This document shows, piece by piece, positions 36,457-40,689 of a stretch of 44,709 nucleotides of DNA (within the stretch, counting starts at the first letter, position 1; each line of letters opens with the position of its first letter). Source of the DNA: a virus; the UHGV virus genome UHGV-0231863; one strand, given 5' to 3'. The translations under genes and the position numbers were made by a program. Under the pieces are notes generated by a model. It saw only the letters and a program-made list of their open reading frames with translations. It had not been told where the DNA came from and ran no database searches.

Positions 36457-37926
36457 ATGTTAACTATGAACGGTCAGAATCAGGGTGTTAAGACAAAACA
36501 CCGGGAATGGCTGCATCACTTCGATAAATGGCAGAAGGTGCGCCACGCACTGGAGGGTGACCTTATCCGCTATCTGCGAAACGTCGGGAAGAACGAGCCG
36601 GACCCAACTTATGCAGCCCAGCGCCAGGAAGAATACGAGAACGGCGCTATCTGCTACAATTTCACCAAGCGTACCCTGTCGGGTATGGTTGGCTCGGTAA
36701 TGCGAAAAGACCCGGAGCAGATTATTCCACGTGAACTGGAATACCTGTTACGCAATGCCGATGGCTCGGGTGTCGGCCTGTGGCAGCACGCGCAGGATAC
36801 GCTGATGGAGATTGACTCGGTGGGTCGTGGCGGTTTACTGGTGGATGCGCCGGAGACAGCGGCAGCGACGGCAGCCGAACAGAACGCCGGATTATTAAAC
36901 CCGGTCATCGCATTCTATACCGCAGAGAACATCATCAACTGGCGACTCACTCGCGTAGGCTCTGTTAACCGCGTTACGATGGTAGTGCTGCGTGAGGTAT
37001 GGGAATATTCAGAACCTCGAGCCGAGTTTGAAACCAAGTTTGGGGAACAATACCGCGTTCTCGACTTGATTGACGGGCGCTACCGTCAGCGCATATACCG
37101 ATTCGATGCGGAAGGCGGCGCGCAAGACGAAGTAATAGAAATCTTCCCGGAACTGGGCGAACAGTTGCGCGGCAAAATCCCGTTCACGTTCATCGGGGCC
37201 AGCAACAACGACGCGACGGTTGATGACGCGCCTTTGCTGCCGTTAGCTGAGCTTAATATCGGGCATTTTCGCAACAGCGCAGACAATGAGGAATCTAGCT
37301 TCGTTGTAGGCCAGCCCACTCTGTTCATCGCCCCCGGTGAGAACATGAGCATGGTACAATGGAAAGAAGCCAACCCTCGCGGAGTGCGTATGGGGTCACG
37401 TTCTGGCCATAACATCGGTTACGGCGGCAATGCGTTTCTGGTCCAGGCCGGTGAGAACAACCTAGCCAAGCAGAACATGTTGGATAAAGAGAACCAGGCC
37501 ATCCAGATTGGGGCGCAGCTTATCACCCCGACGCAGCAAATCACCGCGGAATCGGCCCGCCTGCAACGCGGAGCGGATACGTCTGTTATGGCGACAATCG
37601 CACGTAACGTAAGCATGGCGTATACCGATGCGTTGCGCTGGGTCGCGGGTATGCTTGGGATTAGCGACAGCACTGAAATTGAGTTCAAACTGAACATGGA
37701 GTTCTTCCTGCAACCGATGACAGCTCAGGACCGTTCTCAGTGGATGGCGGATATTAACGCTGGCTTGTTACCAGCTACTGCTTACTACGCCGCGCTGCGT
37801 AAGGCTGGCGTAACCGACTGGACCGATGAGGACATTCAGAACGCTATTGAGGACGCACCGCTGCCGTTGGGTGTAAATACTCAGGTAGCGGGGGATATTC
37901 CGCAGTCGGCGCAACAACAGGAGTAG
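36457..37926 (+). CDS. portal protein
   Basis: 489-aa protein directly after terminase, acidic C-terminus. Confidence 0.8.
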   Translation: MLTMNGQNQGVKTKHREWLHHFDKWQKVRHALEGDLIRYLRNVGKNEPDPTYAAQRQEEYENGAICYNFTKRTLSGMVGSVMRKDPEQIIPRELEYLLRNADGSGVGLWQHAQDTLMEIDSVGRGGLLVDAPETAAATAAEQNAGLLNPVIAFYTAENIINWRLTRVGSVNRVTMVVLREVWEYSEPRAEFETKFGEQYRVLDLIDGRYRQRIYRFDAEGGAQDEVIEIFPELGEQLRGKIPFTFIGASNNDATVDDAPLLPLAELNIGHFRNSADNEESSFVVGQPTLFIAPGENMSMVQWKEANPRGVRMGSRSGHNIGYGGNAFLVQAGENNLAKQNMLDKENQAIQIGAQLITPTQQITAESARLQRGADTSVMATIARNVSMAYTDALRWVAGMLGISDSTEIEFKLNMEFFLQPMTAQDRSQWMADINAGLLPATAYYAALRKAGVTDWTDEDIQNAIEDAPLPLGVNTQVAGDIPQSAQQQE

Positions 37927-37931
37927 ATAGA

Positions 37932-37955
37932 AAGGCCCCGCTAGGGGCCTTAGCT
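37932..37955. terminator. bidirectional terminator-like hairpin
   Basis: AAGGCCCC-gcta-GGGGCCTT between convergent portal and KilA-N genes; same stem as 4487 and 17013. Confidence 0.55.
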
Positions 37956-38609
37956 TTAACGTATATTAGCCGCACATTTACGCACAACCCGAGGTATCGC
38001 CTCTTTCAGTTCACCCCATGTATTAACGGCCTCCATGTCAAGAAGTGTCACCAGAGCTTTCTGGATGTCACTTCGCAACTGATTGGTCTTCGCATCCTGA
38101 GAGTCCCATGTATCGAAACCCGTTACGTCGCGGATATCTACGGATTCCTTTACCGCTTTAGCCACCTGTATGAAGTGTCCACTGTGGCCAATTCTTCCCT
38201 CCGTGCGCTCAATCATTCGACTAACGGCAGCGTTAAGCTCGACAAAGCTCACCGCGCCAATGTTTCGTAGTTCTACCTGCCGTTGTGTGATAAAGCGGTC
38301 GATAACGAGGAAATGGAAATAGGCGCTGTATTGCTCAGCAATATATACTGCCAGATGGAGACATGCAAAGGTGCGACCGTTTCGGCCTTTCGTCGCCCTT
38401 ATGGCATTCTCGATTCCGAGTTGTTTTTCGCATTCCTCCTTGAAAATCTTGAAGCCATCCGTTGACATGACCTGGCGAAGCTCTCTTGTCCCCATGCCGT
38501 TGTCTAAACGCCAACGGTTCATCTGGTCAACCAGCTCGTTTACGTTAATAAAGTTTTCACGGTCAAAAGTGATTTCTCCATAAGGGAACTCTAATGTTTG
38601 CAGTTTCAT
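37956..38609 (-). CDS. KilA-N domain protein (antirepressor-like regulator)
   Basis: GRNGRTFACLHLAVYIAEQYSAYFHFLV resembles the KilA-N/APSES core; lone minus-strand gene inside the head module with own promoter and AGGAG SD. Confidence 0.5.
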   Translation of the reverse strand: MKLQTLEFPYGEITFDRENFINVNELVDQMNRWRLDNGMGTRELRQVMSTDGFKIFKEECEKQLGIENAIRATKGRNGRTFACLHLAVYIAEQYSAYFHFLVIDRFITQRQVELRNIGAVSFVELNAAVSRMIERTEGRIGHSGHFIQVAKAVKESVDIRDVTGFDTWDSQDAKTNQLRSDIQKALVTLLDMEAVNTWGELKEAIPRVVRKCAANIR

Positions 38610-38637
38610 GCGTATTTCTCCTGTTTAAGTGTACGTT

Positions 38638-38665
38638 TAAATTCTACATTTGAATGTAGAATTTA
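38638..38665. promoter_or_regulatory. 28-bp palindrome (13-bp perfect arms)
   Basis: TAAATTCTACATT tg AATGTAGAATTTA in the divergent region between KilA-N and head morphogenesis genes. Confidence 0.6.
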
Positions 38666-38670
38666 ATCAA
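38641..38670 (-). promoter_or_regulatory. promoter TTGATT-18-TAGAAT for KilA-N gene, overlapped by 28-bp palindrome
   Basis: Minus strand; palindrome TAAATTCTACATT-tg-AATGTAGAATTTA at 38638-38665. Confidence 0.45.
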
Positions 38671-38751
38671 GCTCTTTTTAACCTTAAATGCGTATGATTA
38701 TGCCAATACGTTACCGACTGATATGATTGTCATATCGAAACAGGAGGGTAT

Positions 38752-40689
38752 ATGAGCTTACTGACATCTCTAATCAGCCACCAGATTTGGCTGCAACGCG
38801 CCGCATCCGGTGAAGTAAAAGACCTCGCACCATTCATTCAGGAAATGCGGGACGAAATCAAACGGCAGGTGCTGCTATTCGGCGACGACGGCCGCAGCAC
38901 CGCACGGCTGAATAAACTGTTACGTGACCTTGAAGAAGCTCTGACGGGGCTCACAGGTGACTGGCAAACAAAGCTGACAGAAGACCTTAAGGAACTGGCG
39001 GCGTATGAGGCTGAGTGGAACGTAAAGACACTGGCCACCAACGTTAACGCGGAATTTGTTACGCCTACCGCCGAGCAAGTGTGGGCCGCTGCCGAGTTTC
39101 AGCCGCTATCGTTAAGTGACAAGCCTGTTGATTTCACTAAGCTAATGTCAGGCTGGGGTGAAACCGAAGTCGCGCGCCTTGTGACCGGCGTTAAGATGGG
39201 CTTTGTACAAGGCCAGACAACACGGCAGATTGTTAAGAATGTCGTAGGCGCTGGTGGGCTGGCGGACATCTCTGAGCGTAACGCAGCTACGGTAATACGC
39301 ACCGCGCTGTCTCATGTATCCAACGAAGCCCGTAACGAGACGTACCGCCAGAACGATGACATCATCGAGAAATACGAGTGGGTGTCGACGCTGGACAGCC
39401 GTACCAGTACAACGTGTTTCACGGCTGAAACAGAATTAGCGCCCATCGCGGGGATGGACGCGGTAATGCGCGGACTCTATTCAGGAAAAATCCTTACCAT
39501 CGAACTTTCCAACGGCGAGAAGTTCAGTGGCACCCCGAAACACCCTGTACTCACGCAATACGGATGGACTCCGCTTGATGAACTCGACCCAACTAAGCAT
39601 GTCTTGTATACCACTGTTGACAAAGTGACTGTGCTCGAAACAGTGAAGAACATAAACATGCCAGCCAGAGCGGATTATATTTTTAATACGCTCGCTGATT
39701 TCCCCATCAGGAAAATGGTAAGCACGAGTCCCGCGGCAACAGATTTCTATGGCGATGGAGTGGGACTCAATGGCAAAATCGACATTGTACGGGCCGATTG
39801 CAAACTGCGGAACTACGTCCATGCCAGCGGAATTAAACAATTCAAAAGCGAGGGTTTCAGTCTTATTCATAGCGCCGCTTTGCTGTCGGACGATAGCTCT
39901 GGCGATTTTCTCCTCCGGGGTGAATGTCCTGTGAGTGTGCCCGCGCTTAGCGAGGCCAAGTGTTTTGACCATAGAATAGAAAACTGTTTTGCTTACTTGG
40001 GTCCTTCTTATGCACTCAATAGGCGGGACGCCGGACTCGAACAATTCTATAGCCCTTTTTTGATTCAAAATGGTGTCGTTAGAAACCCAACCACGGGGTC
40101 GATCATGCATGAGTCCGAGCTTCTTGAGAAATGTTGTTACCGTGGTGGTAGTGACGCCGTAATTCTTGGCTATGATGCTGGCGGGAGTGCCATCTCGGTA
40201 CAAAGAACAAATATCATCCGCATAAGCGTCGAGTTTAGAACGTGCCATGTTTATACCCTCTCTAGTAGTCAAGGATATTATACAGCAGGTAGTGCGATAG
40301 TCAAGAATTGCAGGGCCAGAGACGGGATGACGTGGGAAATCGGTAAAGGGCCGATGCCTCCGGCCCATTTTGGGTGCAGAAGCACCACTGCGCCTGTAAT
40401 CAGTTCGGAGTTCGACTTCCTCGATAAAGGCGCAAAACGCGCGGCTAAGGGTGCGGACGGCGGTATGCAGGTAAGTGCGGACACCACCTATTACGAGTTC
40501 CTGAAACAACAACCGGCATGGTTTCAGGACCAGGCGCTTGGTCCTGTTCGCGGTAAGATTTTCCGCAACAGCGGTATATCACCAGAGGAGTTTCGCGTAA
40601 TATCTGTAGATGGTTTCGGGAATCCGCTCACGCTTAAGCAGATGGCGGAACTCGATAAACGTGTTGCTGATTATCTGAAAGGGGAATAA
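38752..40689 (+). CDS. head morphogenesis protein (Mu F / SPP1 gp7-like) interrupted by an intein
   Basis: Extein junction reconstitutes DSRTSTT|CRARDGMTW...PPAHFGCRSTT, matching the D-x-R-x-R...H...G...CRC-type Mu F motif; 298 in-frame codons are inserted. Confidence 0.8.
   Translation: MSLLTSLISHQIWLQRAASGEVKDLAPFIQEMRDEIKRQVLLFGDDGRSTARLNKLLRDLEEALTGLTGDWQTKLTEDLKELAAYEAEWNVKTLATNVNAEFVTPTAEQVWAAAEFQPLSLSDKPVDFTKLMSGWGETEVARLVTGVKMGFVQGQTTRQIVKNVVGAGGLADISERNAATVIRTALSHVSNEARNETYRQNDDIIEKYEWVSTLDSRTSTTCFTAETELAPIAGMDAVMRGLYSGKILTIELSNGEKFSGTPKHPVLTQYGWTPLDELDPTKHVLYTTVDKVTVLETVKNINMPARADYIFNTLADFPIRKMVSTSPAATDFYGDGVGLNGKIDIVRADCKLRNYVHASGIKQFKSEGFSLIHSAALLSDDSSGDFLLRGECPVSVPALSEAKCFDHRIENCFAYLGPSYALNRRDAGLEQFYSPFLIQNGVVRNPTTGSIMHESELLEKCCYRGGSDAVILGYDAGGSAISVQRTNIIRISVEFRTCHVYTLSSSQGYYTAGSAIVKNCRARDGMTWEIGKGPMPPAHFGCRSTTAPVISSEFDFLDKGAKRAAKGADGGMQVSADTTYYEFLKQQPAWFQDQALGPVRGKIFRNSGISPEEFRVISVDGFGNPLTLKQMAELDKRVADYLKGE
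39481..40248 (-). CDS. antisense-nested gene: tandem HTH + DUF559/Vsr-like endonuclease-fold protein
   Basis: Minus-strand ORF from ATG 40248 (antisense to His499 codon) with GAGGG SD and TTGACT-16-TATAAT promoter; IIAKNYGVTTTTVTTFLKKLGL and IECIRRTQVSKTVFYSMVKTLGL HTH-like; QFAIGPYNVDFAIESHSIAIEI...GWHVYVL matches DUF559 pattern. Confidence 0.55.
   Translation of the reverse strand: MARSKLDAYADDICSLYRDGTPASIIAKNYGVTTTTVTTFLKKLGLMHDRPRGWVSNDTILNQKRAIELFESGVPPIECIRRTQVSKTVFYSMVKTLGLAKRGHTHRTFTPEEKIARAIVRQQSGAMNKTETLAFELFNSAGMDVVPQFAIGPYNVDFAIESHSIAIEICCRGTRAYHFPDGEISERIKNIIRSGWHVYVLHCFEHSHFVNSGIQDMLSWVEFIKRSPSVLREYRVFRGATELLAVGKFDGKDFS
40277..40304 (-). promoter_or_regulatory. sigma70-type promoter TTGACT-16-TATAAT for the antisense intein-nested gene
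   Basis: Minus strand reads TTGACTatcgcactacctgctgTATAAT, then GAGGG SD and ATG; lies within the intein C-terminal coding region. Confidence 0.55.

What the first reader, a model, noticed from the sequence alone, without database searches (positions are those of the whole stretch)
38638..38665. 28-bp palindrome with perfect 13-bp arms overlapping the KilA-N promoter
TAAATTCTACATT-tg-AATGTAGAATTTA lies in the 142-bp gap between the minus-strand KilA-N-like gene and the plus-strand head morphogenesis gene, covering the -10 and spacer of the KilA-N promoter (TTGATT-18-TAGAAT). A perfect repeat of this length is a strong operator or cruciform candidate and is unrelated in sequence to the AATAG/CTATT sites, implying a second regulatory specificity.
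Basis: seen in the sequence. Interest (0 to 1): 0.5.

Follow-up and report, generated by a model that had tools for sequence, protein, structure and literature searches.

The report
Allele-specific palindromic operator in KilA-N promoter
A perfect 30-bp palindrome sits on the promoter of a small mobile phage gene for a DNA-binding (KilA-N) protein; related phages carry different palindromes at the same spot, each matched to a different version of the protein, so it is most likely the gene's own on/off switch.

Summary
The palindrome is real and slightly longer than reported: perfect 14-nt arms (38637-38650 / 38653-38666) around a 2-nt centre. No dinucleotide shuffle of the window reached that length. 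It covers the spacer and -10 of the only sigma-70-like promoter facing the minus-strand KilA-N gene.

The gene, its promoter and the palindrome form a portable cassette. It lies antisense inside structural operons of Kagunavirus, Jerseyvirus and Macdonaldcampvirus phages, and it is absent from phage KMB36.

Relatives carry at least five sequence-different dyads (A, A', B, D, E) at the same promoter position. Each type goes with its own variant of the N-terminal KilA-N domain, while the C-terminal domain is nearly invariant. Within a type, the promoter-distal arm never varies, although the centre, 5'UTR and upstream DNA do. Decayed relic copies have lost their symmetry. Centres flip to their reverse complement in three lineages, which points to hairpin-templated mutation.

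Best reading: an operator for a dimeric, allele-specific regulator, most probably the KilA-N protein itself acting as an autorepressor. No binding or transcript data exist, and physical linkage could produce the same covariation.

This is a new member of a known kind and of moderate interest. A BstA/aba-like self-recognition role is not excluded.

The parts
38653..38666 (.). Promoter-distal arm of the palindrome (AATGTAGAATTTAA on +). It occupies the -35/-10 spacer of the minus-strand promoter and touches the -35.
   Evidence: Invariant (0/12) among type-A relatives while the flanks vary.
38651..38652 (.). 2-nt centre (TG on +). Its sequence is unconstrained, and it is inverted to CA in the 99.4%-identical phage EcoPhCCP1.
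38637..38650 (.). Gene-proximal arm (TTAAATTCTACATT on +). It contains the -10 hexamer of the minus-strand promoter.
38641..38646 (-). Predicted -10 hexamer TAGAAT of the KilA-N promoter.
   Evidence: Aligned with TACCAT, TATAAT and TAGTAT in other alleles.
38665..38670 (-). Predicted -35 hexamer TTGATT (18-nt spacer).
   Evidence: Aligned with TTGACA, TTGCAA, TTGCAT and TTGACT in relatives.
38618..38626 (-). Ribosome-binding region AAACAGGAG of the KilA-N gene.
   Evidence: (I3).
37956..38609 (-). KilA-N-domain gene (217 aa). The N-terminal KilA-N/APSES-like domain is variable; the C-terminal helical domain is conserved. This protein is the proposed regulator. It is annotated 'amidase' in databases.
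37932..37951 (.). GC-rich hairpin AAGGCCCC-GCTA-GGGGCCTT between the convergent portal and KilA-N genes. It is terminator-like and marks the likely 3' end of the cassette.
   Evidence: Cassette limits come from the comparison with the cassette-free phage KMB36.
38700..38727 (+). Separate promoter-like site for the head-morphogenesis gene (ATGCCA-16-TATGAT with an upstream TG). It lies outside the palindrome and is context rather than part of the operator.
   Evidence: TGnTATGAT is conserved in Jersey-type relatives.

Best explanation
The palindrome is an operator built into the core promoter of a self-contained, mobile KilA-N gene cassette (a moron). Two subunits of a dimeric DNA-binding protein, most probably the cassette's own KilA-N product, bind the two arms. 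The site is centred about 17 bp upstream of the predicted start, so a bound protein would cover the spacer and the -10, exclude RNA polymerase and switch the gene off (negative autoregulation). This would limit antisense transcription into the surrounding late structural operon. Shown: the palindrome, its overlap with the consensus promoter, its conservation pattern, its co-mobility with the gene, and its covariation with the KilA-N domain. Inferred: the start site, the identity of the binding protein, its dimeric state, and repression rather than activation.
For: (1) Position. The dyad spans from the 3' edge of the -35 to 3-4 bp past the -10. The same architecture recurs in sequence-different alleles: A AAATTCTACATT-NN-AATGTAGAATTT; B AAATGGTATAT-N4-ATATACCATTT; D GAATACTA-N11-TAGTATTC; E AAATACTAC-N8-GTAGTATTT. 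A and E differ by a compensated change on both arms.
(2) Portability. The cassette occurs in unrelated neighbourhoods: portal/head genes in Kagunavirus and Jerseyvirus, tape-measure/tail genes in Macdonaldcampvirus ViIIE1, and next to terminase in L239. Homology starts at the -35. It is absent from Kagunavirus KMB36. The factor must therefore travel with the cassette or be universal. A single host factor cannot fit five different sequences.
(3) Covariation. Every sampled locus pairs its palindrome type with a KilA-N domain variant: residues 41-49 are TRE.RQVM (A), FKHLRQLM (B) or .KNLSQLL (D/E). The C-terminal domain is nearly invariant under strong purifying selection, with 65-71 synonymous against 9 non-synonymous codon changes.
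(4) Constraint. Distal arms, which lie in spacer DNA, are invariant (0/12 in A, 0/11 in B). Variable positions are 2/2 and 3/4 in the centres, 12/29 and 17/29 in the 5'UTR, and 21/30 and 19/30 upstream. Pooled Fisher p = 5e-6, uncorrected for phylogeny. Displaced relic copies have decayed to 10/12.
(5) Protein. The AlphaFold model has pLDDT 90.9. Foldseek matches the domain-swapped dimeric DNA-binding protein DdrC (probability 1.0) and the Mbp1 DNA-binding domain (probability 0.99) (PMC9303277).
(6) Prediction tested. Distant homologues (25-32% identity) with their own upstream region also carry promoter palindromes. P0062 has 14-nt perfect arms with TATAAT in the proximal arm (0/300 shuffles). 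P0055 has 10-nt arms (<=1/300). P0049 has 8 nt over TATAAT (18/300).
Against: No binding, footprint, reporter or transcript data exist; no Jerseyvirus transcriptome turned up in the one literature search made. Palindrome and N-domain codons lie only 150-250 bp apart, so linkage alone could give the covariation. The number of independent allele/background combinations is about a dozen. Type C alleles have only a 6-nt-arm dyad (AAATTA-N6-TAATTT) with a consensus TATAAT. AG11/ER phages combine a B-type protein with a perfect A palindrome downstream of a B promoter. Perfect 14-nt arms are unusual for operators and may be kept perfect by hairpin-templated conversion. The best fold match, DdrC, binds DNA without sequence specificity, and the TM-scores are low (0.36-0.39). 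The A/B-discriminating residues flank rather than fill the presumed recognition helix. One distant homologue with its own upstream region has no significant palindrome (P0043; 60/300 shuffles).
Confidence: 0.5

Rival explanations
1. Cognate self-recognition DNA, analogous to BstA/aba. The palindrome is bound by the KilA-N protein, but its main role is not to regulate transcription. It marks or protects the phage's own DNA, or titrates the protein, in competition between co-infecting phages with different alleles.
For: BstA is a KilA-N-domain abortive-infection protein. It is neutralised only by its own homologue-specific short DNA element, which spans the 5' end of its gene (PMC8585504). Here there are allele-specific DNA/N-domain pairs, serial allele replacement that leaves stacked relic promoters (C, then A, then E in L236-238; C then B in dunkel; B+A in AG11), and a diversifying N-domain joined to a strongly conserved C-domain. 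That pattern is typical of conflict loci.
Against: No similarity to BstA models was found in PADLOC. aba has terminal direct repeats and spans the start codon, whereas this element is an inverted repeat lying entirely on the promoter. The hosts are virulent phages, not prophages. There is no phenotype. A plain autoregulatory operator explains the position on the -10 more simply.
Confidence: 0.15
2. Structure-only switch. Under negative supercoiling the palindrome extrudes a cruciform that sequesters the -10, making the promoter sensitive to DNA topology without any specific protein.
For: The arms are perfect and AT-rich with a minimal loop. The DNA hairpin has dG -9.5 kcal/mol, z = -5.9. Symmetry is kept while the sequence changes between alleles. 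Centre inversions in three lineages, and conversion of an arm to a perfect complement, show that intrastrand pairing happens in vivo. Cruciform-regulated promoters are a known concept (review PMC3176155; Horwitz and Loeb 1988, from memory).
Against: Alleles D (8-nt arms, 11-nt loop) and E (10-nt arms, 8-nt loop) keep the dyad but are poor cruciform formers. The K47 variant tolerates 2 mismatches in one arm. This reading does not explain the covariation with the KilA-N domain, or why distant homologues of this protein family also have promoter palindromes. Thirty base pairs is near the lower limit for extrusion in vivo (general knowledge).
Confidence: 0.1
3. Operator for a factor other than the KilA-N protein, such as another phage regulator or a host protein, for example to shut the antisense gene off at late times.
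For: The same positional and conservation evidence applies as for the main explanation. Temporal shut-off of an antisense gene inside a late operon would be useful.
Against: The site is unique in the window, so no regulon is visible. The cassette works in three phage genera with different gene sets. At least five different sequences sit at one position within near-identical phage backgrounds, so the factor must vary too, and the only adjacent variable protein module is the KilA-N domain. I recognised no known E. coli or Salmonella transcription-factor consensus (from memory, not a database test).
Confidence: 0.1
4. Non-functional by-product. Hairpin-templated replication errors convert a chance quasi-palindrome around the -10 into a perfect one and keep it perfect, so there is no selected function.
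For: Window against EcoPhCCP1: 2 of 5 differences in 901 bp are the exact inversion of the centre. L236 against L238: all 6 differences in 616 bp are a centre inversion plus arm correction that produces 24-nt perfect arms. Perfectness is therefore at least partly mutational.
Against: Independent dyads occur at the same promoter position in several alleles and in distant homologues. Relic copies decay instead of being kept perfect. The window has no other such palindrome.
Confidence: 0.08
5. RNA-level or promoter-symmetry element: a terminator or processing hairpin in a transcript crossing the gap (one GenBank record annotates it as a terminator), or a bidirectional promoter arising from the mirrored -10.
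For: OR122686 labels the site 'terminator'. The RNA folds into a 13-bp stem. A TAGAAT hexamer also faces the plus-strand gene. In L238 the mirror even includes the -35.
Against: The stem has few G-C pairs and no adjacent U-tract, and the terminator scan does not call it. The genes diverge here, so nothing ends at this point. A GC hairpin downstream of the portal gene and a separate conserved TGnTATGAT promoter serve the plus-strand gene. With the predicted start, the palindrome is not in the KilA-N mRNA. No -35 exists for the mirrored -10 in the window. The mirrored -10s would give start sites about 35 bp apart, outside the 7-25 bp that defines bacterial bidirectional promoters (PMC10268837).
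Confidence: 0.05

Closest known systems
Palindromic repressor operators placed between or over the -35 and -10 of phage promoters (for example the Arc operator in P22 Pant, or LexA boxes; from general knowledge)
   Same: A dyad-symmetric site lies over the core promoter of a sigma-70-type promoter. The expected mechanism is steric exclusion of RNA polymerase by a dimer. The regulator gene lies next to the site.
   Different: The presumed regulator has a KilA-N/APSES-type domain, for which no phage operator has been defined to my knowledge. The arms are perfect over 14 nt. The site exists as at least five allelic versions that change together with the DNA-binding domain.
BstA-aba self-immunity pair of prophages (Owen et al. 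2021, PMC8585504)
   Same: A KilA-N-domain protein is paired with a short, homologue-specific DNA element at the 5' end of its own locus. The locus is mobile and phage-borne, and it infects Salmonella/E. coli hosts.
   Different: No detectable sequence relation to BstA. aba is 63 bp with terminal direct repeats and overlaps the start codon. This element is an inverted repeat confined to the promoter. The hosts are virulent siphophages. No defence phenotype is known.
DdrC of Deinococcus radiodurans (PDB 7qvb, 8u0g, 7udi; PMC9303277)
   Same: Best structural match of the predicted protein: an N-terminal winged-helix-type domain plus a C-terminal helical bundle of similar length. DdrC is a dimer with two DNA-binding sites.
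   Different: 11-12% identity and TM 0.36-0.39. DdrC binds DNA without sequence specificity and senses breaks. It is not a transcription factor and has no known operator.
Heteroimmune repressor/operator sets of temperate phages (lambdoid, P2/WPhi; PMC1904268 appeared in a title list only and was not read)
   Same: Closely related phages carry different operator sequences matched to different DNA-binding specificities, exchanged as modules by recombination.
   Different: Here there is a single site on a single accessory gene in virulent phages, and no lysogeny switch.
Bacterial bidirectional promoters arising from -10 symmetry (Warman et al. 2021; PMC10268837)
   Same: Pseudo-symmetric promoter DNA with mirrored -10-like hexamers.
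   Different: Those share one -10, with divergent starts 7-25 bp apart (mostly 18). Here the two hexamers are 10 bp apart, the predicted starts are about 35 bp apart, and the mirror promoter lacks a -35.

Membership tests
Promoter-overlapping palindromic operator (autoregulated gene) | Dyad-symmetric DNA site | tested here: met
   14-nt perfect arms and a 2-nt centre. 0 of 100 shuffles reach 14.
Promoter-overlapping palindromic operator (autoregulated gene) | Site overlaps the -35/-10 or start of the regulated promoter | tested here: met
   The consensus scan gives TTGATT-18-TAGAAT at 38670..38641, inside or abutting the palindrome. The hexamers align with better -35s in relatives. The start site is predicted, not mapped.
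Promoter-overlapping palindromic operator (autoregulated gene) | Half-sites conserved beyond the needs of the promoter, with centre and flanks free to vary | tested here: met
   Distal arms 0/12 and 0/11 variable. Centres 2/2 and 3/4, 5'UTR 12/29 and 17/29. Relic copies have decayed.
Promoter-overlapping palindromic operator (autoregulated gene) | Cognate sequence-specific, oligomeric DNA-binding protein encoded in cis | tested here: inconclusive
   The KilA-N domain is supported for the family (35/47 members). The model resembles dimeric DdrC and the Mbp1 DNA-binding domain. The N-domain covaries with palindrome type. Oligomeric state and specificity were not tested.
Promoter-overlapping palindromic operator (autoregulated gene) | Binding represses transcription | not testable with these tools
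   Needs EMSA or footprinting and reporter assays.
BstA-aba self-immunity system | Protein homologous to BstA (KilA-N N-domain plus the BstA C-domain) | tested here: not met
   PADLOC scan at E <= 0.1 gave only a weak PDC-S22 hit (0.0019) and no BstA model hit. Whether this PADLOC release holds a BstA model was not checked. KilA-N is the only shared domain.
BstA-aba self-immunity system | Homologue-specific DNA element at the 5' end of the gene's own locus | tested here: inconclusive
   Allele-specific palindromes exist. They lie upstream of the start codon and are inverted repeats. aba has terminal direct repeats and spans the ATG.
BstA-aba self-immunity system | Protein blocks replication of phages that lack the element, and the element relieves the block | not testable with these tools
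   Needs a phenotypic assay.
Bidirectional promoter by -10 symmetry | Divergent start sites 7-25 bp apart sharing reciprocal -7/-11 positions | tested here: not met
   The mirrored TAGAAT hexamers lie at 38641-38646 (-) and 38657-38662 (+), 10 bp apart, so predicted starts are about 35 bp apart. No plus-strand -35 was found. Definition from PMC10268837.
Intrinsic (Rho-independent) terminator | G+C-rich stem followed by a T/U run, at the end of a transcription unit | tested here: not met
   Not called by the terminator scan. The stem is AT-rich. The T run (38674-38678) is separated from the stem. The site lies between diverging genes.
Cruciform-forming promoter switch | Perfect inverted repeat long enough, and with a short enough loop, to extrude in all functional versions | tested here: inconclusive
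   Met for type A (14/2), type B (11/4) and L238 (24/8). Poorly met for D (8/11) and E in L236 (10/8). Extrusion itself is not testable here.
MerR-type spacer operator (activation by DNA distortion) | Dyad inside an over-long 19-20 bp spacer, bound by a MerR-family protein | tested here: not met
   Spacers are 17-18 bp. The adjacent protein is KilA-N-type, not MerR. The family definition is from general knowledge.

The most novel reading that the evidence does not exclude
The palindrome and the variable KilA-N domain form a cognate 'self' DNA-protein pair, comparable to BstA/aba, carried by a mobile cassette in virulent phages. The protein acts on DNA that lacks its own palindrome, for example a co-infecting rival phage or a cassette-free relative. 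The palindrome exempts or titrates it. The serial allele replacement seen at this locus would then record an arms race between phages.
Probability: 0.15. Interest if true: 0.7.

Novelty: new member of a known kind. Interest (0 to 1): 0.42.

Why it matters
KilA-N is one of the commonest DNA-binding domains of phages and large DNA viruses, and it is the ancestor of the fungal APSES/SBF cell-cycle factors (PMC4862756). To my knowledge, however, almost no KilA-N protein has a defined DNA target. This locus offers several natural, closely related protein/site pairs (A, A', B, D, E). They differ at a few residues and a few base pairs, which makes a ready-made system for working out how the domain reads DNA.

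The locus also corrects a widespread 'amidase / lysis' annotation (PHROG 6095 and many GenBank records). It shows how a small antisense accessory gene can sit inside a late structural operon. It documents hairpin-templated inversion and 'perfecting' of a natural promoter palindrome. If the BstA-like reading were right, it would extend cognate DNA self-immunity from prophages to virulent phages.

Tried and rejected
(1) Other copies of the half-site in the window: none beyond chance, so no regulon.

(2) Scans of IMG/VR for one arm plus a few bases of the other arm returned mostly single-strand chance hits. Both-strand hits occurred only in contigs already known to carry the gene. The scans gave no new variants.

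(3) Sequence search of the PDB: nothing significant.

(4) Back-translation search with the distant alignment A2 failed because there was no conserved stretch.

(5) Literature searches for a KilA-N operator, a Jerseyvirus promoter study or a transcriptome found nothing usable.

(6) Terminator reading rejected: AT-rich stem, no adjacent U-tract, diverging genes.

(7) Bidirectional-promoter reading rejected on geometry.

(8) Host transcription-factor sites (CRP, FNR, LexA, ArgR, TyrR, Fur, Cra) were compared from memory only. None fits, and five different sequences at one position argue against any single host factor.

(9) vB_SE130_3P (L234) shows single-arm changes in both palindromes. That record also has indels and frameshifts nearby, so I treated the changes as probable sequencing errors.

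(10) The 7-nt inverted repeat over the plus-strand -10 (38720-38737) and the 9-nt complementarity of the two ribosome-binding sites are not conserved, or are trivial.

Full report
**Observation.** The sequence at 38637-38666 reads TTAAATTCTACATT-tg-AATGTAGAATTTAA. The repeat finder reports arms 38637-38650 and 38653-38666, 14 nt each, 100% complementary, with 2 nt between them. The element lies in the 142-bp gap between a minus-strand gene (37956-38609) and a plus-strand gene (38752-40689).

It is the only perfect short-range inverted repeat of 11 nt or more in the window. In 100 dinucleotide-preserving shuffles of the whole window, the longest perfect inverted repeat with a loop of up to 10 nt had arms of 8-12 nt and never 14. 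The half-site does not recur elsewhere beyond chance. The consensus scan finds one promoter-like site facing the minus-strand gene, TTGATT-18-TAGAAT at 38670..38641. The palindrome therefore covers the spacer and the -10 and abuts the -35.

**Setting.** The window is a Jersey-like siphophage of the Guernseyvirinae. The 901 bp around the site are 99.4% identical to Escherichia phage EcoPhCCP1 and about 83-84% identical to Salmonella phage Jersey and many Jerseyviruses.

The left gene encodes a 217-aa protein.
- It hits Pfam KilA-N just below the gathering score.
- An exhaustive HMMER search finds about 98 cluster representatives, mostly 200-225 aa.
- 35 of 47 aligned members hit KilA-N, with a best E-value of 7e-18.
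- Databases call it 'amidase' (PHROG 6095, category lysis; GenBank records). I found no amidase domain.
- The AlphaFold model is confident (mean pLDDT 90.9). It has a beta-beta-alpha-alpha-alpha-beta-beta N-domain (1-82) and a helical C-domain with a 42-residue helix.
- Foldseek against the PDB returns the dimeric DNA-binding protein DdrC (probability 1.0, E 7e-4, TM 0.36-0.39) and the Mbp1 APSES DNA-binding domain (probability 0.99). DdrC is a domain-swapped dimer with a winged-helix N-domain and two DNA-binding sites (PMC9303277).

The right gene is a Mu F-like head-morphogenesis gene. A GC-rich hairpin (37932-37951) lies between the convergent portal and KilA-N genes. A separate promoter-like site with an extended -10 (TGATATGAT, 38700-38727) precedes the head gene and is conserved in Jersey-type phages.

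**The gene, promoter and palindrome form a portable cassette.**
- In Salmonella phage ViII-E1 (genus Macdonaldcampvirus), the homologous gene VIP0034 lies antisense between the tape-measure and minor-tail genes. It has the same type of promoter and exactly the same arms.
- Similarity to the window begins at about the -35.
- In a metagenomic phage, the gene sits next to the small terminase gene.
- Kagunavirus KMB36 lacks the cassette. There the portal gene is followed by a terminator and then directly by the head gene.
- About 60 GenBank phages carry the type-A palindrome. In IMG/VR, both-arm matches occur only in contigs that encode the gene.

**Different palindromes occupy the same place.** I aligned the 110 nt upstream of the start codon in about 35 loci. 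All have the same length from the -35 to the ATG. The allelic types are as follows.

| Type | Dyad | Centre or note | Found in | -10 hexamer |
|---|---|---|---|---|
| A | AAATTCTACATT-NN-AATGTAGAATTT | TG or CA | window, EcoPhCCP1, ViII-E1 group | TAGAAT |
| A' | AAAAGCTACATT-TA-AATGTAGAATTT | distal arm 10/12 | Kenya-K47 | TAGAAT |
| B | AAATGGTATAT-N4-ATATACCATTT | CTAT, ATAG, TTAT or TCAT | Jersey, many Jerseyviruses, SB28 | TACCAT |
| D | GAATACTA-N11-TAGTATTC | | L013 | TAGTAT |
| E | AAATACTAC-N8-GTAGTATTT | extended to perfect 24-nt arms in L238 | L236-238 | TAGTAT |
| C | AAATTA-N6-TAATTT | only a 6-nt dyad | L008-012 | TATAAT |

In every type, the -10 hexamer lies in the gene-proximal arm, and its reverse complement lies just downstream of the -35. 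The hexamers differ only at the two positions that matter least to sigma-70. Types A and E differ by one base in the arm, and the other arm carries the matching change.

**Covariation with the protein.**
- The C-terminal domain (residues 86-217) is almost invariant at the protein level despite saturated synonymous change. Window against the ViII-E1 group gives 65 synonymous and 9 non-synonymous codon differences; window against type C gives 71 and 9.
- The N-terminal KilA-N domain is diversified between types: 32 non-synonymous against 20 synonymous codon differences in 66 codons, window against type C.
- The residues that separate A from B loci are 41-43 (TRE against FKH), 47, 49, 67-68 and 72. 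Types D and E have .KNLSQLL, and C has QPRNLAQIL.
- Every B-palindrome locus fetched has the FKH protein, and every A or A' locus has the TRE protein.
- In AG11/ER/SE124 phages, a B-type gene is preceded by a complete B promoter-palindrome. Between them sits a type-A palindrome whose -35 is degraded to TCGGTT or TTGGTT.

**Constraint and decay.** Within type A (excluding K47) and within type B, the distal arm is invariant (0/12 and 0/11 positions). That arm lies in spacer DNA, which a promoter does not constrain. By contrast, the centre varies at 2/2 and 3/4 positions, the 5'UTR at 12/29 and 17/29, and the 30 nt upstream of the -35 at 21/30 and 19/30. Fisher p values are 0.008 and 0.0008, and 5e-6 pooled. 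These values are not corrected for shared ancestry and are therefore indicative only.

Displaced copies decay. The intergenic region of L236-238 holds, in order, a type-C promoter relic, a type-A-like palindrome reduced to 10/12 with a dead start codon, and then the functional type-E unit. L239 has a decayed A relic, and dunkel has a C relic followed by a B unit. The locus has therefore been overwritten repeatedly by new alleles.

**Hairpin-templated mutation.**
- The window and EcoPhCCP1 differ at five positions in 901 bp. Two of them are 38651-38652, TG against CA, the exact reverse complement of the centre.
- Jersey and L015 differ by CTAT against ATAG.
- L236 and L238 are identical over 616 bp except for six positions, all in the palindrome. 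Together these invert the 8-nt centre and convert the right arm into a perfect complement of the left, mirror -35 included.
- These changes are the expected products of intrastrand template switching (general knowledge of quasipalindrome mutagenesis). They show that the DNA folds back at least during replication. They also show that the perfection of the arms is partly mutational.

**Test of a prediction.** If palindromes at the promoter are a property of this protein family, distant members should show them too. I looked at five distant homologues (25-32% identity) that have their own upstream region.
- P0062 has 14-nt perfect arms with TATAAT in the gene-proximal arm (0/300 shuffles).
- P0055 has a 21-bp perfect palindrome over a -35-like hexamer (at most 1/300).
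- P0049 has 7-8-nt dyads over a TTGACT-17-TATAAT promoter (18/300).
- P0043 is unremarkable (60/300).
- The fifth (P0053, L243/L244, about 90 nt of upstream spacer) has none, and neither does P0040 (L028), which directly abuts the upstream gene.

All of these sequences differ from one another.

**Mechanism.** The most economical reading is an operator. A dimeric, sequence-specific protein binds the two arms, centred near -17, and blocks RNA polymerase. Three observations point to the cassette's own KilA-N protein as that factor.
- The cassette functions in three phage genera.
- The site is unique in the genome.
- The sequence changes together with the adjacent DNA-binding domain.

Autorepression would give an early pulse followed by shut-off. 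That is useful for a gene transcribed against a late structural operon. I put this at about 0.5, and a protein operator of any kind at about 0.65-0.7.

The main caveats are the absence of any binding or transcript data, the close linkage of site and domain, the weak dyad of type C, and the non-specific DNA binding of the best structural match.

**Rivals.**
- A BstA/aba-like role: a KilA-N protein neutralised only by its own short DNA element at the 5' end of its gene (PMC8585504). This is the most interesting alternative and fits the arms-race pattern. However, there is no homology to BstA models, and the element differs in kind and position.
- A protein-free cruciform switch fits types A and B. 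It does not fit the short-armed, long-looped D and E alleles, nor the link to the protein family.
- A purely mutational by-product does not explain the recurrence at the same position or the decay of relics.
- The terminator annotation in OR122686 and a bidirectional-promoter reading both fail their defining features.

**Verdict.** The finding is real and non-random. It is best explained as an allele-specific promoter operator of a mobile KilA-N cassette: a new member of a known kind. It has added value as a natural set of cognate KilA-N/DNA pairs and as a clear case of hairpin-templated palindrome evolution. Interest is moderate at 0.42.

Noticed in passing
window 39415-40308 (+) and about 39481-40248 (-); L248 788-1597 (-): The Mu F-like head gene carries a 298-aa intein (residues 222-519; EcoPhCCP1 has a single Cys there). 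Fully inside the intein-coding DNA, on the opposite strand, lies a long ORF (343 aa from TTG; probably about 255 aa from an ATG near 40248). It has weak HTH_7 and REase_MTES_1575 (Vsr/DUF559-like) hits. Phage dunkel has a different intein at a different site of the same protein, and that intein also holds an antisense 269-aa ORF with the same HTH plus 'YNLDFAV..VAVEV' motifs. This looks like a recurrent antisense-encoded homing-endonuclease gene within inteins.
   Followed up: partly
window 37956-38609 (-): The gene is widely annotated 'amidase' (PHROG 6095 'lysis'; GenBank records for ViII-E1, dunkel, EcoPhCCP1). No amidase domain was found. The family is KilA-N plus a helical domain, and the model resembles DNA-binding proteins. 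This is probably a propagated misannotation.
   Followed up: yes
L236-L238 925-1200; L026/L027; L004/L233; L239 about 960-1000: Promoter relics are stacked upstream of the KilA-N gene. Older allele promoters, palindromes and even the first codons remain as decaying fossils upstream of the current allele (C then A then E; C then B; B then A). The dunkel junction shows microhomology (CAGAC/ATAATC). This implies repeated allele replacement at the locus.
   Followed up: partly
window 38651-38652; L236 vs L238 1155-1176; L015 vs L016: Palindrome centres are inverted to their exact reverse complement in three independent lineages. In L238 one arm is also converted, giving 24-nt perfect arms. This is a signature of intrastrand template switching.
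   Followed up: yes
L249 (OR525703 KMB36) 1340-1400 vs window 37920-38752: Kagunavirus KMB36 has the same intein-bearing head gene but no KilA-N cassette. Its portal gene is followed by a canonical terminator (AGCCCCGAAAGGGGCTTTCTT) and then the head gene. This is the 'empty site', and it shows that the cassette also brought its own head-gene promoter and ribosome-binding site.
   Followed up: partly
window 38618-38626 and 38738-38746; 38720-38737: The two divergent genes use the identical ribosome-binding sequence AAACAGGAG, which gives a 9-nt inverted repeat 111 nt apart. In a read-through plus-strand RNA this would pair with and mask the head-gene site (centroid fold). A 7-nt inverted repeat GATATGA-TTG-TCATATC overlaps the plus-strand -10 but is not conserved in Jersey.
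   Followed up: partly
L247 about 200-260; L245/L246 upstream 84 nt; L242 upstream 39-47 nt: Distant homologues of the KilA-N protein from metagenomes also have strong palindromes over their predicted promoters (14-nt, 10-nt and 8-nt arms). All differ in sequence from the window's palindrome.
   Followed up: partly
L235 (Kenya-K47) about 70-90 nt upstream of the palindrome: A GC-rich 17-bp palindrome GTACCGGA-T-TCCGGTAC sits in a different intergenic sequence between the head gene and the KilA-N promoter of phage K47. Its function was not examined.
   Followed up: no
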